Positions 255 to 61,523 of a stretch of DNA of 64,000 bases are shown here, piece by piece. The stretch spans positions 63,612,001 to 63,676,000 of the forward strand of contig OX597822.1 of assembly GCA_951406725.2 (NCBI GenBank), read 5' to 3'. Below the pieces are notes generated by a model. It had not been told where the DNA came from. It saw only the letters and a program-made list of their open reading frames with translations, and did no database searches. This DNA is from Octopus vulgaris (lineage: Eukaryota). How positions within the stretch are numbered: position 1 is the first letter of the stretch; every line of letters starts with the position of its first letter. The position numbers and the translations under genes are program-made.

Positions 255-668
255 TATTTCTTTACTACCCACAAGGAGCTAAACACAGAAGGGACAAACA
301 AGGACAGGCAAAGGGATTGTCATTTACATCGACCCCAGTGCATAACTGGTACTTAATTTATTGACCTCAAAAGGATGAAAGGCAAAGTCGACCTCGGCGG
401 AATTTGAACTCAGAACGTAGCAGCAGACAAAATACCAATTTCTTTACTACCCACAAGGGGCTAAACACAGAGAGGACAAACAAGGACAGACAAACGTATT
501 AAGTCGATTATATCGACCCCAGTGCATAACTGGTACTTATTTAATCGACCCCGAAAGGATGAAAGGCAAAGTCGACCTCGGCGGAATTCGAACTCAGAAC
601 GTAGCAGTAGACAAAATACTGTTAAGCATTTCGCCCGGTGTGCTAAAGTTTCTGCCAGCTTTCCGCCT
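255..668 (-). mobile_element. SINE family B dimer inserted into a family A copy
   Basis: Two tandem units; ctttcagtttct is duplicated at both ends. Confidence 0.85.
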
Positions 669-2944: not shown

Positions 2945-3158
2945 TATCTGTAAATGTAATATGTGACAATTATTTGATAGCCATGATAAAACTCCGAGTT
3001 TTGGATGTCAGGGTGGAAATCCATGCGGCCATCTCTTCAGTTATCTGGCCATCGGATGGCTGGATAACTGAAGAGATGGTGGCATGGATTTCTACCCTGA
3101 CATCCAAAATTCGGAGTTTTATCATGGCTACTGAATAATTGTCACATATTACATTTAC

Positions 3159-3163
<5 letters not shown>
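2945..3163. mobile_element. Palindrome (~108-bp arms) with a hammerhead-ribozyme motif in each arm; Penelope-like pLTR derivative
   Basis: Arms tatctgtaaatg...ggccatc / gatggct...catttacagata are reverse complements. The + arm reads GATAA-CTGAAGA-GATG..CATC-C(A)AAA-(T/C)TCGGAG-TT-TTATC. Abuts (TA)n. Confidence 0.75.
3063..3123 (+). ncRNA. Degenerate type-I hammerhead ribozyme motif (mirror copy at 2985-3045, minus strand)
   Basis: Stem I GATAA/TTATC, core CUGAAGA, stem II GAUG/CAUC, GAAA mutated to AAAA (CpG-type change), short stem III, GUU cleavage triplet. Confidence 0.6.
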
Positions 3164-3198
<35 letters not shown>

Positions 3199-27193: not shown

Positions 27194-27414
27194 GTACCAC
27201 CTTAAAAGGTTTTAGTCGAAGAAATTGACCCCCAGGTCGTGTTATTTGTAAGCCTAGTACTTATTGAATTTGGTCTCTTTTGCCGAACCGCTAAGTTACA
27301 GAGACATAAACACACCAGCATTGGTTGTGAAATGATGGCAGGGGGACAAACACATAGACACACATAAATATGTACATATATACACACACATATATACACA
27401 TACATATATATACC

Positions 27415-27446
<32 letters not shown>

Positions 27447-27475
27447 TACCTATATATATATGTATTATATATGTT

Positions 27476-27513
<38 letters not shown>

Positions 27514-27797
27514 CACATGTATATATATCATCATCATAATCATGTATATATATCATTATCATCATCATCATGTGGCATGTACCACCTTAAAGGGTTTTAG
27601 TCGAAGAAATTGACCCCCAGGTCATATTCTTTGTAAGCCTAGTACTTATTGTATTGGTCTCTTTTGCCGAACCACTAAGTTACAGAGACATGAATACACC
27701 AGCATTGGTTGTGAAATGATGGCAGGGGGACAAACACATAGACACAGATAAATATGTACATATATACACACACATATATACACATACATATATATAC

Positions 27798-27834
<37 letters not shown>

Positions 27835-28080
27835 TTCCTATATATATATGTATTATATATGTTTGTATATATATATATATGTGTATATATATCTATATAT
27901 ATGTATATACATGTATGTATATATATATACATACACATGTATCATCAGCATACATCATCATGTATATATATCATTATCATCATCATGTGGCATGTACCAC
28001 CTTAAAGGGTTTTAGTCGAAGAAATTGACCCTCAGGTCGTATTCTTTGTAAGTCTAGTATTTATCGTATTGATCTCTTTT
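27194..28080 (+). repeat. Tandem triplication of a SINE-A tail plus microsatellite unit (~385-415 bp)
   Basis: gtaccaccttaaa.ggttttagtcgaagaaattgaccc starts at 27194, 27578 and 27994. Confidence 0.85.
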
Positions 28081-34077: not shown

Positions 34078-34379
34078 AGACAATACACAGAATTAACCTT
34101 CCACCTTGATGCGAAGTGACCAAACAATTCAATCTTGGAGGATAAACACTTCGTGCTATTTGATTTATCAGACAATTTCAGAAAATATTGATTTCCTTTT
34201 GATTAAACATCAGGCCATATATACATATATATATATATATATAGACACACACACTCGCACATATATATAAATATATATATATACATAAATGTTTTTGTTA
34301 CATTATGGTAAAAACGCTTTTACATTAAACTGAAGGATTACTCGATGCATTTTGTAGAGTACAGATTTATTAATTTACC

Positions 34380-34517
34380 ATTCTTTAACAAGCGTAGTAT
34401 TGACAGTGACTTCAAAGTTTCTGACAGCTAAGCCATCATCAAATATTCCACAATCTGAGGATGGCTTAAATGGCCAAAACTTCAATATCGCTGTCTATAC
34501 TATTCATGTTCAAGAAT
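34380..34517. mobile_element. Older degenerate palindrome with hammerhead-like motifs
   Basis: Arms are imperfect reverse complements. + arm: CTGAGGA-TGGC..GCC-AAAAC-TTCAAT-ATC. - arm: TTGATGA-TGGC..GTCA-GAAAC-TTTGAA-GTC. Lies between TA-rich microsatellites. Confidence 0.55.
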
Positions 34518-34533
34518 AATATATATATGTATA

Positions 34534-34597
<64 letters not shown>

Positions 34598-35105
34598 ATT
34601 CAATATAAAATAGTGTACATTTAAACACAAAGAGAAATTACTTATTACAGGTAATTTCTACACGCTAGGAAGGAGACAGTCAAAACAACTGAAGACCACA
34701 AAATAAATTTAAGCAATTTCAAAGGGAATGAAAAATAAAAACTTTTACCTTGTTTTTTACGGTTATACCTATAGGTTTTGGATTTTTTTAGTAACTAAAA
34801 TAATTTAATTTACCAGGCAAATCCTCTTCAGTAACCGAGCCATCCAAGACTAACCTATAATTATGAGACCGATCATTATCATCACCATCATCATTTAACG
34901 TCCATTTTCCATACTGGCATGGATTGGATGGTTTGACAGGAGCTGGTTTGGCAGAAGACTGCACAGTCTTCTCTGTCTGTTTTAACTCTGATTAAATTAA
35001 TTCCTCCTACATGGCTGGTCGTACTTATACTATTAATCCCTAGAAAAACAAAAGGCAAAATTTACCTTAACTAGATTTGAAACCAGAACTGAAGGAAACA
35101 TAATT

Positions 35106-52707: not shown

Positions 52708-53117
52708 AAGGAGTGGCTGTGTGGTAAGTAGCTTGCTTACCAACCACATGGTCCTGAGTTCAGTTCCACTGCGTGGCACCTTGGGCAACTGTCTTCTACT
52801 ATAGCCTCGGGTCAACTAAAGCCTTGTGAGTGAATTTAGTTTACGGAAACTGAAAAAAGTCTGTTGTATATATGTGTGTGTGTATGTGTGTGTGTGCGTG
52901 AGTGTGTGTGAGCGTGCATGTGTGTGTTTGTCCCCCCACCATTGCTTGACAACTGATGCTGGTGTGTTTACGTCCCTGTAACATTAGCAGTTCAGCAAAA
53001 GAGACCAATAGAATAAGTATTAGGCTTACAAAGAATAAGTGCTGGGGTCAGTTTGCTCGACTAAAGGCGGTGCTCCAGCATGGTCGCAGTCAAAATGACC
53101 GAAACAAGTAAAAGAAT
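52708..53117 (+). mobile_element. SINE family A
   Basis: Direct near full-length match. Confidence 0.9.
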
Positions 53118-53924
53118 GTAAAACCTAATGATAATTTTGAAACCACATCAAATACTTTCTACGCTACACAATGAGCCAAGAATGGATCTACTACATGGTT
53201 ACTTGACCAGCTAGAAATAGCAGTCAAATCTCTTTTGAATTATGTTCCCACCTCTTACGAAAGAGAAAGAAACAATAGATAAGGGAGTCTTAGTTAATAA
53301 TTAAAAGGCATGATGGTCATAGCTGGAATGCTTTTCATCATTAAGGCTGGGATGACCTGAGCTTCAGCAACAACTGTTACATTCCATGTGTAATTTCATT
53401 ATAATGCTTTGCACTTTTGTAAACCTTTAAACATCTGTTGGACCTATACAAACTCTAGTGAATACCATACTTAGGCTCAGCTCACAAAATCTGGGGCAGA
53501 ACAGCTGCTACATGATCAAAAATTCTAGACCATTTCCAAAAAAGGGCCTCTGGCTGATTGTTATATCTTCACTTTCTGCCACAGTGCAAGCCCTAGCACG
53601 CTGATGCTCTGTGTCACCACCCCACAACATATGTTCTCTTGTATTAATATTCTTTCTTTTCTTTTATTCTTTTACTTGTTTCAGTCTTTTGACTGCGGCC
53701 ATGCTGGAGCACCACCTTTAGTCGAATCAAATCGATCCCAAGACTTATTCTTTGTAAGCCTAATGCTTATTCTATTGGTCTCTTTTGCCGAACTGCTAAG
53801 TTACGGGGGCGTAAACATACCAGCATCAGTTGTCAAGCAATGTTGGGGGAAACAGAACACAAATACACAACATATACACACACATACATATATATATATA
53901 TATGTATATACATATATATATATA

Positions 53925-54417
53925 TATATTAATCAAAATAAAAACATGATGCCAATGATTCAGCGGCACATATGATTCGGGCCTTCATTAGACAGTTTTA
54001 TAACAATGCAAAATGTGTGTCTATGGCCTTCTTCAGCCACGTACAATTACTACTTCAAGGACATGTATTACATTATAAGTTTTACGTTGGGGATGCAAAT
54101 CCTCATAGTCGCGTACGACAGAGTGGGGCACCAACACAAAAATGAAGCGTCCATCCCGTCTTTCACATCGAAAGAGTGAAAGACGGGATGGACACTTCGC
54201 TTTTGAGTTGGTGCCCCACTCTGTCGTACGCGACTATGAGGATTTGCATCCCCAACGTAAAACTTATAATGTAATACATGTCCTTGAAGTAGTAATTGTA
54301 CGCAGCTGAAGAAGGCCATAGACACACATTATGCATTGTTATAAAACCGTCTAATAAAGGCCAGAAACATATGTACCGCTGAATCCTTGGCATCATGTTT
54401 TTATTTTGATTAATATA
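53925..54417. mobile_element. Long near-perfect palindrome (~240-bp arms, GAAA-capped loop) with hammerhead motifs; Penelope-like inverted pLTR inserted in the (TA)n of a SINE
   Basis: 53925-54166 is the reverse complement of 54176-54417 with scattered mismatches; loop atcgaaaga; flanked by (TA)n tracts inside the SINE at 53655-54678. Confidence 0.85.
54302..54379 (+). ncRNA. Minimal type-I hammerhead ribozyme motif (mirror copy at 53963-54040, minus strand)
   Basis: GCAG-CTGAAGA-AGGCCATAGAC...GTCTAATAAAGGCC-A-GAAA-C-ATAT-G-TA-CCGC. The two-arm consensus for stem I is GCGG/CCGC; palindromic stem III CATATG is typical of Penelope hammerheads. Confidence 0.65.
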
Positions 54418-55265
54418 CTCTATCACCTACACCACTAAATGGTATATACAGGTGCTTACAATTATCAAGTATTCACCCTGAATTTTTATATATATATATA
54501 TACACACATATATACGACGGGCTTCTTTCAGTTTCCATCTATCAAATCCACTCACAAGGCTTTGGTCAGCCCAAGGCTATAGTAGAAGGCACTTGCCCAA
54601 GATGCCACGCAGTGGGACTGAACCCAGAACCATGTGGTTGATAAGCAAGTTTGTTACCACACAGCCACTCCTGTGCCTGATATGATAATAATTCCTTCAC
54701 TTCAGATCTAACAATCTCTGTACTGTCCTTCCATTTCCACTCCACCACCTCTTCTACTCATCTCTGCTGCCTGTTAATTCCTTGAATTTGTGTCGGATTC
54801 TCACTCTGCTATCTGAGATCATATCTCATCAAGGTCAAGTTTGCCTTTCATCCCTCCGGGATCTAGAAACAAGTCCTTCTCTCAAAATTTTTGTGTCTAT
54901 AGTAGAAAGAATTTTTGTTATTGTTGTAATTAGAAAAATTTGATATGAGCAGTGAAAGTCTTTAACCAGTCCTGTCTGTCTAACTTTTGTTGTCTTTCTC
55001 TTTGCATCACCATAATTCCGTTTCACATTTTATCATGGTCACTCCTACATTTCAGTTCTGTAATGCTTCTTGATATCATCTTCCTTCCTCTCTCATTCAT
55101 TCTTCTCTGCACCTTTTTTTCTCTTTCCTCTTCCTTTGCGGGGTGTTCCTGTTAGGTCTTCCTCTCTGCAGCATCCTTGAACCAGGGTGAAAGATAAAAT
55201 CTTTCTCTGTTTCTTGGCTGTTTTTATCTTTTCTTCTTCGGCACACTCCCTCCATCACACCTTAC

Positions 55266-60924: not shown

Positions 60925-61523
60925 CGGCAAGATGGCAAAAGCGTTAGCACGCCGGGCGAAATACTTTAGCGGTATTTCGTCCGCCGCTGCGTTGAGTTCA
61001 AATTCCGCCGAGGTCGACTTTGCCTTTCATCTTTTCGGGGTCGATTAAATAAGTACCAGTTACGCACTGGGATCGATATGATCGACTTAATCCGTTTGTC
61101 TGTCCTTGTTTGTCCTCTCTGTGTATAGCCCCTTGTGGGTAGTAAAGAAATAGGTATTTCGTCTGCCGCTACGTTCTGAGTTCAAATTCCGCCGAGGTTG
61201 ACTTTGCCTTTCATCCTTTCGGGGTCGATAAATTAAGTACCAGTTATGCACTGGGGTCGATATAATCAACTTAATCCGTGTGTCTGTCCTTGTTTGTCCC
61301 CTCTGTGTTTACCCCCTTGTGGGTAGTAAAGAAATAGGTATTTCGTCTGCCGTTACGCTCTGAGTTCAAATTCCGCCGAGGTCGACTTTGCCTTTCATCC
61401 TTCCGGCGTCGATTAAATAAGTACCAGTTACGCACTAGTGTCGATCTAATCGACTTAATCCGTTTGTCTGTCCTTGTTTGTTCCCTCTATGTTTAGCCCC
61501 TTGTAACCAACAAAGAAATAAGA
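60925..61523 (+). mobile_element. Nin/Deu-domain SINE, family B, head-to-tail trimer
   Basis: B-box-like gagttcaaattcc; Nin-like gcctttcatcctttcggggtcgataaattaagtaccag; units restart at ggtatttcg at 60971, 61153 and 61337. Confidence 0.9.

What the first reader, a model, noticed from the sequence alone, without database searches (positions are those of the whole stretch)
53925..54417. ~490-bp hairpin with a hammerhead ribozyme in each arm, parked in a SINE's (TA)n
Seen: ~240-bp arms, a loop that can fold as tc-GAAA-ga, and a type-I hammerhead layout (CUGAAGA, stem II ggcc..tagac/gtcta..ggcc, GAAA-C-AUAU-G-UA). The arms read gcag and gtgg at stem I, which are reciprocal CpG decays of GCGG that pairs with the downstream CCGC. 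The + arm keeps its core; the - arm has GAAU and UG changes. Established: Penelope-like elements carry minimal, dimer-acting hammerheads in pLTRs and leave inverted pLTR pairs. Inference: this is either a tail-to-tail pLTR remnant or a non-autonomous palindromic, ribozyme-bearing element. Any transcript through it would form long dsRNA that masks the ribozyme and could be an ADAR or Dicer substrate.
Basis: partly seen in the sequence, partly recalled or inferred. Interest (0 to 1): 0.8.

Follow-up and report, generated by a model that had tools for sequence, protein, structure and literature searches.

The report
Head-to-head Penelope retroelement stub
This 490-base hairpin with a hammerhead-ribozyme motif in each arm is real, but it is most likely an ordinary, decaying footprint of a Penelope-like jumping gene (two copies of its end joined head to head in a TA repeat), a layout already described and present twice more in the same 64-kb window.

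Summary
The inverted repeat is real: 242-nt arms, 229 of 242 matching, 9-nt loop. Each arm carries an outward-pointing minimal type I hammerhead motif. Contigs from three organism codes show a high-copy family, strongly enriched at the 3' end, that runs on beyond the hairpin centre. Other copies have different inversion junctions, so the centre is a truncation point, not a fixed end. Two more palindromes of the same build, from unrelated families, lie in this window (3 of 3 found, 0 in 6 shuffles). Head-to-head arms, a one-sided tail, a (TA)n target and minimal hammerheads on opposite strands are the published footprint of Penelope-like elements. Both local ribozymes are damaged and cannot dimerise in cis. 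The parent RT/GIY-YIG gene could not be reached. Two weak leads remain: junctions cluster near 54165-54175, and one RNA-like run shows A>G changes inside the hammerhead. Verdict: new member of a known kind; low interest.

The parts
53650..53890 (-). 3' half of the host SINE copy (the target, not part of the insertion)
   Evidence: 33 other BLAST hits in the window; aligns to the intact + strand copy at 52709-53120
53884..53929 (.). (TA)n target tract at the left junction
   Evidence: period 2, 23 copies
53925..54166 (-). Left arm: tailless copy of the element's 3' end (pLTR-sized), reading outward on the - strand; its outer few bases merge with (TA)n
   Evidence: other family copies also end at the matching 54404-54417 before TA-rich flanks (table 7)
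53963..54040 (-). Decayed minimal type I hammerhead (GAAA to GAAU, cleavage triplet GUA to GUG)
54167..54175 (.). Head-to-head junction: a few bases of family run-on sequence plus 1-2 extra bases; a 5' truncation point
   Evidence: table 7 (loose ends behind 54166 in X2 and X6), tables 5 and 5c
54176..54417 (+). Right arm: second copy of the same 3' end
54302..54379 (+). Minimal type I hammerhead motif: stem I 3 of 4 pairs, CUGAAGA, extra A, stem II, GAAA, palindromic CAUAUG helix III, GUA site at 54373-54375; C before GAAA changed to A
   Evidence: family majority letters, table 3
54418..54487 (+).
   Evidence: absent from the intact SINE; second depth peak at 54458-70 in X2, X5 and X6; contigs bridging arm and tail: X2 record 15, X6 records 30-32, X12 records 5-6
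54483..54514 (.). (TA)n/(CA)n tract at the right junction
54515..54680 (-). 5' half of the host SINE copy
   Evidence: 30 other BLAST hits in the window

Best explanation
The hairpin is two copies of the hammerhead-bearing end of a high-copy repeat family, joined head to head inside a SINE's TA tract with a tail on one side only, and it is most likely a single dead insertion of a Penelope-like retrotransposon (PLE). Shown: the geometry, the one-sided tail, the TA target, the family's 3' enrichment, its run-on beyond the centre and the varied junctions of other copies. Inferred from published PLE biochemistry: the element's GIY-YIG endonuclease would nick both strands of the AT-rich target. Reverse transcription would start at two internal sites of the RNA, one giving the tailed arm and one the tailless arm. 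Both cDNAs would stop near the 5' edge of the pseudo-LTR (about 54165-54176) and be joined there with a few extra bases. Fold-back self-priming at the short TCGA palindrome is the main alternative for the second arm; I put it at about 40% against about 60% for two primed cDNAs. Both arms likely came from one source copy and have since decayed independently, leaving both ribozymes predicted inactive or impaired. In the parent element the hammerhead would work as a dimer through the palindromic CAUAUG helix III, or with protein help, to process tandem transcripts (untested).
For: (1) Geometry and tail. (2) Multi-copy family: 20 of 24 listed runs, from 4 organism codes, hold 0.15-0.43 of the sampled words; 1303, 34, 332 and 977 contigs were laid in X2, X12, X5 and X6. 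(3) Summed contig depth rises about 130-fold (X2), 40-fold (X5) and 20-fold (X6) from 54185-97 (adding the mirrored left-arm bin) to the hammerhead bin 54367-79; the tool warns this is no copy number. (4) The family runs on past the centre (loose ends behind 54166: 6 contigs of median 50 nt in X2, 7 of median 20 nt in X6). (5) Five other inversion junctions have partner sides at about 54206, 54291, 54334, 54337 and 54375 (tables 5, 5c; one further row, 54128/54223, dropped as an artefact of my reference holding part of the left arm; the 54334 and 54337 junctions may be one insertion). (6) Both arms share six letters that are minority in X2 (54236, 54260, 54263, 54268, 54300, 54346), while at 54206, 54304 and 54363 only the right arm departs from the majority. 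(7) 3 of 3 fold-back palindromes found in the window share this build, against 0 in 6 shuffles. (8) Literature: inverted 5'-truncated copy, one-sided tail and (TA)n bias (PMC8557442); head-to-head junctions and pLTRs of 181-218 bp (PMC3846280); dual minimal hammerheads 100-700 bp apart on opposite strands, an extra nucleotide after A9 and a palindromic helix III (PMC4209133); both strands cut and extended, with two RT start sites bounding the tail (PMC11167929).
Against: No RT or GIY-YIG coding sequence was linked to this family: no genome is held, Pfam found none in 145 of 257 window segments tested, and collection scans gave no true relative. The run-on upstream reads by hand like an ORF end with its stop codon at 54177-54179, but this rests on 30-nt loose-end consensus lines. 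The tail is about 70 nt, longer than the 30-40 nt reported. No target-site duplication can be read in (TA)n. Rfam has no hammerhead hit. One side of all 5 other junctions lies within about 54165-54175, so the boundary is preferred rather than random. Depth is from contigs and can be skewed by assembly and by the reference's own divergence.
Confidence: 0.75

Rival explanations
1. The family is an ORF-less, non-autonomous PLE derivative (a solo-pLTR or retrozyme-like unit of about 310 nt) copied in trans by a PLE enzyme. The palindrome is still an insertion by-product.
For: One side of all 5 other junctions, and of this one, sits at about 54165-54176, as if the RNA template began there. No ORF was found. 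A 2026 preprint argues that animal retrozymes derive from pLTRs (10.64898/2026.07.22.740005, part 1 of 5 read).
Against: Some copies run on at least 50 nt upstream of the boundary. No 'goes back' joint from tail to head, as tandem units would give, is listed (table 5). The hammerhead is of the minimal PLE type, not the canonical retrozyme type.
Confidence: 0.12
2. A discrete palindromic element with a fixed centre that moves as a whole hairpin.
For: The arms are equal in length and near-perfect, and the centre lies at the preferred boundary. Only 32 of 2659 contig pieces and 24 of 208 loose ends were shown, so identical centres could be hidden.
Against: The insertion is asymmetric. No listed contig spans this loop, and listed pieces start at 54174-54175 or leave at 54166 into a different run-on. 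Other junctions differ. Most family depth sits in the outer 120 nt. The arms have decayed independently.
Confidence: 0.06
3. A single PLE end inserted first, and the mirror arm arose later by DNA fold-back or template switching during replication or repair.
For: The arms share all subfamily letters. A 96-nt stretch without mismatch (54207-54302) is longer than expected (P 0.016), which suggests DNA-level copying between arms at some time.
Against: Three unrelated families in 64 kb show the same build, with one end in (TA)n and one tailed. The tailless end matches a family-wide end point. Generic repair would not produce this.
Confidence: 0.07

Closest known systems
Insertion footprint of endonuclease-bearing Penelope-like elements (Penelope/Poseidon, Neptune, Nematis, Hydra): inverted 5'-truncated pLTR, one-sided tail (Arkhipova et al. 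2013, PMC3846280; Craig et al. 2021, PMC8557442)
   Same: Head-to-head join, pLTR-sized arms, tail at one end only, (TA)n target hiding any duplication, hammerhead motif within the repeat, strong 5' truncation.
   Different: No ORF in this copy and none linked in my searches; tail about 70 nt rather than 30-40; clade not assigned.
Minimal type I hammerheads of metazoan PLEs (Cervera and de la Pena 2014, PMC4209133)
   Same: CUGANGA and GAAA core, extra nucleotide after A9, 4-bp stem I, long stem II, small palindromic helix III; pairs on opposite strands 100-700 bp apart were reported in Schistosoma mansoni.
   Different: Stem II has an unusually long insert (51 nt between the two core boxes). 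Its base is either G10.1-C11.1 with a bulged C or an A.C mismatch. Both local copies are mutated, and activity was not tested.
Poseidon of Anolis carolinensis, PAc (Frangieh et al. 2024, PMC11167929)
   Same: AT-rich target, both strands cut and extended, two internal RT start sites that bound the tail; this accounts for one tailed and one tailless arm.
   Different: That paper (parts 1-2 of 4 read) does not show how inverted pairs are joined. In PAc the ORF starts inside the hammerhead; no such frame is evident here.
Animal non-LTR retrozymes (PMC7229834; preprint 10.64898/2026.07.22.740005)
   Same: Short, non-coding, type I hammerhead, PLE-related.
   Different: Retrozymes are direct tandem repeats with canonical hammerheads; this is an inverted pair with a minimal one.
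Naiad PLEs of octopuses (Naiad_Ovul, Naiad_Obim; PMC8557442 supplement)
   Same: (TA)n target, PLE-type insertion structure.
   Different: Naiads lack canonical hammerheads. The Naiad_Ovul sequence and the 3' part of Naiad_Obim (compared by eye) do not resemble this arm, and motif searches of the supplement gave only two short hits in unrelated sequence.

Membership tests
EN+ Penelope-like element | Single ORF with telomerase-like RT and GIY-YIG endonuclease | not testable with these tools
   No genome held; no Pfam RT or GIY-YIG hit in 145 of 257 window segments; collection scans gave no true relative
EN+ Penelope-like element | Pseudo-LTR carrying a type I hammerhead motif | tested here: met
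   family majority restores stem I GCGG and the C before GAAA
EN+ Penelope-like element | Inverted 5'-truncated copy joined head to head | tested here: met
   (run-on past the centre; five other junctions)
EN+ Penelope-like element | Tail present at one end only | tested here: met
   about 70 nt here against 30-40 nt in PMC8557442
EN+ Penelope-like element | 5' truncation with 3'-biased abundance | tested here: met
   table 2 (contig depth, a rough proxy only)
EN+ Penelope-like element | AT-rich or (TA)n target | tested here: met
EN+ Penelope-like element | Target-site duplication | tested here: inconclusive
   Both ends merge into (TA)n
Minimal type I hammerhead ribozyme | CUGANGA, GAAA and NUH core | tested here: met
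   + arm and family majority meet it; - arm does not (GAAU, GUG)
Minimal type I hammerhead ribozyme | Stem I and stem II closing pair G10.1-C11.1 | tested here: inconclusive
   Family: 4-bp stem I and C at 54363, giving either G-C with a bulge or an A.C mismatch. + arm: 3 of 4 stem I pairs and A at 54363
Minimal type I hammerhead ribozyme | Palindromic helix III allowing a dimer | tested here: met
   CAUAUG; the 8-mer self-duplex is -7.0 kcal/mol
Minimal type I hammerhead ribozyme | Self-cleavage | not testable with these tools
   No assay; one X6 junction starts at 54375, at the predicted cut site, a single case
Rfam hammerhead families | Covariance-model match | tested here: not met
   the same library also missed the phage hammerhead-like motifs in L006 and L007 at gathering score
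Non-LTR retrozyme | Direct tandem repeats of a 150-450 bp unit | tested here: not met
   Inverted pair; no tail-to-head joint listed (table 5); no tandem array here
Non-LTR retrozyme | Circular RNA intermediate | not testable with these tools
   Only contigs were available
Discrete palindromic element or MITE | Fixed symmetric ends and the same centre across copies | tested here: not met
   One-sided tail; varied junctions; run-on past the centre (tables were cut short)
Naiad PLE | Lack of a canonical hammerhead; similarity to known octopus Naiads | tested here: not met

The most novel reading that the evidence does not exclude
Head-to-head PLE stubs make long double-stranded RNA that ADAR edits inside the hammerhead. 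Editing the A at the base of stem II would turn an A.C mismatch into an I.C pair, so the host's editing machinery could tune a transposon ribozyme. The hint: in the RNA-like run X12, A>G at 54310 and 54313 reaches 33.6 of 144.7 depth in 5 contigs, against 0.03% or less in X2, X5 and X6, and 4 of 5 X12-private changes are A>G (binomial P 0.02, but the overall A>G share is not significant, Fisher P 0.20). A rare expressed variant locus explains it equally well.
Probability: 0.05. Interest if true: 0.65.

Novelty: new member of a known kind. Interest (0 to 1): 0.2.

Why it matters
As a feature it matters little: it is a routine, decaying retrotransposon footprint. It is useful in three small ways. 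It shows that repeat- or RNA-annotation tools can mistake PLE stubs for hairpin elements, and Rfam misses their ribozymes. The density (three such palindromes and one solo motif in 64 kb) suggests that PLE stubs may be a large source of potential double-stranded RNA in this genome, which matters if the host is a cephalopod with heavy A-to-I editing (host group recalled from the SINE, not shown by a call). The preferred junction boundary and the two end points give a natural data set for deciding between twin priming and self-priming, an open question in the PLE cycle.

Tried and rejected
Whole genome: not held. Rfam: no hammerhead hit; the miRNA hits are generic hairpin or microsatellite matches far below gathering score. 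Other copies of the arm or tail in the window: none. Metagenome scan: one hit, L001, a chance match inside a bacterial coding region. Viral and prokaryote scans with a 23-nt window motif: 0 and 0. Degenerate hammerhead scans: 15 viral loci, none similar to the element by BLAST. Pfam on 145 of 257 stop-to-stop segments: no RT or GIY-YIG; 4 segments had weak hits, all below curated cut-offs. No RNA holder is listed as such; X12 is only guessed to be RNA, and its contigs carry family-majority letters, so expression of this locus was not shown. Monomer folding z-scores are near zero (0.30 and -0.17) and give no support. The left-arm output was mis-indexed and ignored (redone). The palindrome scan had a masking bug and was replaced. 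The uniform-null P of 4e-6 for junction clustering is not relied on, because assemblers likely keep rare junction contigs mainly beside low-depth sequence. The GAAA tetraloop as a functional feature was rejected because it is private to this junction. A paper on dimer-cleaving PLE hammerheads, asked for by a recalled id, is not held. A paper search for the SINE motif gave 0, so the cephalopod attribution is recalled. Searches for prior reports: octopus + Penelope + hammerhead, 4 listed, none describing this family; hammerhead + ADAR editing + retrotransposon, 1 unrelated; Penelope-like + twin priming, 1 unrelated. Earlier-findings look-ups by sequence and by genome gave nothing relevant.

Full report
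Observation. Each arm holds a type I hammerhead layout that reads outward. A descriptor written after seeing the motif finds it once in the window and 0.013 times per shuffled window (150 shuffles). Rfam does not detect it. The same library also missed two phage hammerhead-like motifs with a similar stem II base that I fetched, so the blank says little.

Aligning the split SINE to an intact copy shows that the inserted DNA is the palindrome plus about 70 nt on the right, 54418-54487, followed by (TA)n. The left arm ends directly in (TA)n. The insertion therefore has the form (TA)n, arm pointing left, junction, arm pointing right, tail, (TA)n. Because the ribozymes point outward, the join is head-to-head in the terms of Arkhipova et al. 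2013 (PMC3846280; passages, outline and Discussion read), not tail-to-tail.

The family. No genome is held, so I used public runs. Twenty of 24 listed runs, from four organism codes, hold 0.15-0.43 of the element's sampled words. I laid contigs of four of them on 54120-54495: 1303 (X2), 34 (X12), 332 (X5) and 977 (X6) contigs fit. Summed depth climbs about 130-, 40- and 20-fold in X2, X5 and X6 from the inner end of the arm (adding the mirrored left-arm bin) to the hammerhead. It dips at 54419-31 and peaks again in the tail. The tool warns that this depth is no copy number, but the shape is the same in three runs and fits 5' truncation. Contigs bridge arm and tail in X2, X6 and X12, while others leave at 54404-54417 into TA-rich flanks. 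The family thus has two 3' end points, about 40 and about 110 nt past the predicted cut site, and this insertion uses one of each.

The centre is not fixed. Behind 54166, 6 contigs in X2 and 7 in X6 continue into a shared sequence that is not the window's loop, so the element extends further 5' in other copies. Read by hand, this run-on looks like the last codons of an ORF whose stop falls at 54177-54179; the two runs differ there at third positions, but this is weak. Tables 5 and 5c list five other inversion junctions after I drop one row (54128/54223) caused by my reference holding part of the left arm. Their partner sides start at about 54206 (X5 and X6), 54291 (X2), 54334 (X6), 54337 (X12) and 54375 (X6); the two near 54335 may be one insertion. 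A loose end in X12 joins reversed tail sequence to 54313. One side of all five listed junctions lies at about 54165-54175, which looks like the 5' edge of the pseudo-LTR or of the template RNA. Assembly bias could inflate this, and only 32 of 2659 pieces and 24 of 208 loose ends were shown. A symmetric palindrome would then arise whenever both arms reach that edge.

History of this copy. Both arms share six letters that are minority in X2 (family majority 55-97%), so they likely came from one source copy. At 54206, 54304 and 54363 only the right arm departs from the majority. At five other mismatched sites the right arm is not listed as a minority letter (6 rows not shown), so the left arm probably changed. 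The arms have therefore drifted independently, about 2.7% each. A 96-nt stretch with no mismatch (P 0.016) may be a conversion patch. The + arm has lost both; the - arm has GAAU and a GUG triplet, which breaks the NUH rule (established knowledge). The two motifs are on opposite strands, so one transcript carries only one, and it would be locked in a duplex of about -408 or -438 kcal/mol.

It is a common footprint here. A scan for fold-back palindromes outside microsatellites found three in the window and none in 6 shuffles: 2947-3161 (107-nt arms, 98 matching), 34380-34517 (65-nt arms, 48 matching) and this one. The three are unrelated in sequence. All have a CUGANGA-type core pointing outward (in both arms for two of them, in one arm with a decayed partner for the third), one end at (TA)n and the other running into an extension. 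A solo hammerhead-like motif lies at about 34760-34836 on the - strand.

Comparison with what is known. Craig et al. 2021 (PMC8557442; passages, supplement searches and part 24 of 59 of the supplement) describe strong 5' truncation, an inverted 5'-truncated copy, a 30-40 bp tail often at one end only, and (TA)n bias. Cervera and de la Pena 2014 (PMC4209133; parts 1-2 of 4) describe minimal hammerheads with an extra nucleotide after A9 and a palindromic helix III, low activity as dimers, and pairs 100-700 bp apart on opposite strands. Frangieh et al. 2024 (PMC11167929; parts 1-2 of 4) show cutting and extension of both strands at AT-rich DNA, two internal RT start sites that bound the tail, and a hammerhead that needs protein and is dispensable for insertion in vitro. 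Retrozymes are direct tandems with canonical motifs (PMC7229834, passages; preprint 10.64898/2026.07.22.740005, part 1 of 5). An octopus repeat annotation gives Penelope-like elements 6.83% of that genome in 190 families (PMC13282606; passages and supplement search); its library sequences were not in the supplement held, so this family may already be catalogued there. PMC6962438 (passages) reports 235 hammerhead hits in a squid genome. That the host is a cephalopod is my recall from the SINE and comes from no call. The element works like a PLE insertion on every feature I could test; the defining ORF could not be tested.

Mechanism. Shown: geometry, tail, target, family profile, varied junctions, decay. 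Inferred: nicking of both strands at (TA)n, two cDNAs started at the two end points, both stopping near the pLTR edge and joined with a few extra bases. Fold-back self-priming, as Arkhipova et al. proposed, is the alternative. Untested: cleavage by the family ribozyme, and transcription of this locus.

Residual leads. In X12, guessed to be RNA, A>G appears at 54310 and 54313 (33.6 of 144.7 depth, 5 contigs) and at 54259 and 54294, nearly absent from the other three runs. Four of five X12-private changes are A>G (P 0.02), but the overall A>G share is not different (14 of 35 against 25 of 91, P 0.20), and no matched DNA exists. One junction begins at the predicted cut site. Earlier AI notes from other genomes reach the same by-product reading; they are leads, not support.

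Verdict. Real, a new member of a known kind, interest 0.2.

Noticed in passing
window 2947-3161 (extension to the left; (TA)n 3161-3197): Second head-to-head palindrome, 107-nt arms, 1-nt loop, unrelated family. Each arm has an outward hammerhead-like motif (5-bp stem I, CUGAAGA, near-palindromic helix III) with the G of GAAA read as A in both arms; the centre is 13 nt upstream of the core.
   Followed up: partly
window 34288-34524: Third, older head-to-head palindrome (65-nt arms, 48 matching) with decayed hammerhead cores; the right end is in (TA)n and the left end carries a ~90-nt extension before (TA)n.
   Followed up: partly
window 34760-34836, - strand: Solo minimal hammerhead-like motif: 5-bp stem I, CUGAAGA, 6-bp stem II, palindromic 8-nt helix III, with AAAA in place of GAAA.
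   Followed up: partly
L006 and L007, 5001-5025, - strand: Two viral contigs hold type I hammerhead-like motifs with an extra A after the core, a 3-bp stem II followed by C, a long stem III and a 5-6 bp stem I. Rfam misses them at gathering score. They are a precedent for the A/C arrangement at the base of stem II.
   Followed up: partly
window 54259, 54294, 54310, 54313 (run X12): A>G changes nearly private to the RNA-like run; possible A-to-I editing inside the hammerhead, or a rare expressed variant.
   Followed up: partly
window 54375 (run X6 junction): One inversion junction in another copy begins at the predicted hammerhead cut site (tables 5 and 5c); a single case.
   Followed up: no
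window 54433-54452: With the family-majority letter at 54439 the tail reads like a branch-point motif 13 nt before an AG; PLEs can carry introns in the pLTR. Weak: short spacing, no pyrimidine tract, and the branch A varies.
   Followed up: no
window 54207-54302 and its mirror: 96 nt without a mismatch between arms (P 0.016); possible gene-conversion patch.
   Followed up: partly
window 256-619, 60971-61504, 27194-28080: Tandem arrays of SINE-like units (periods 184, 184 and 384).
   Followed up: no
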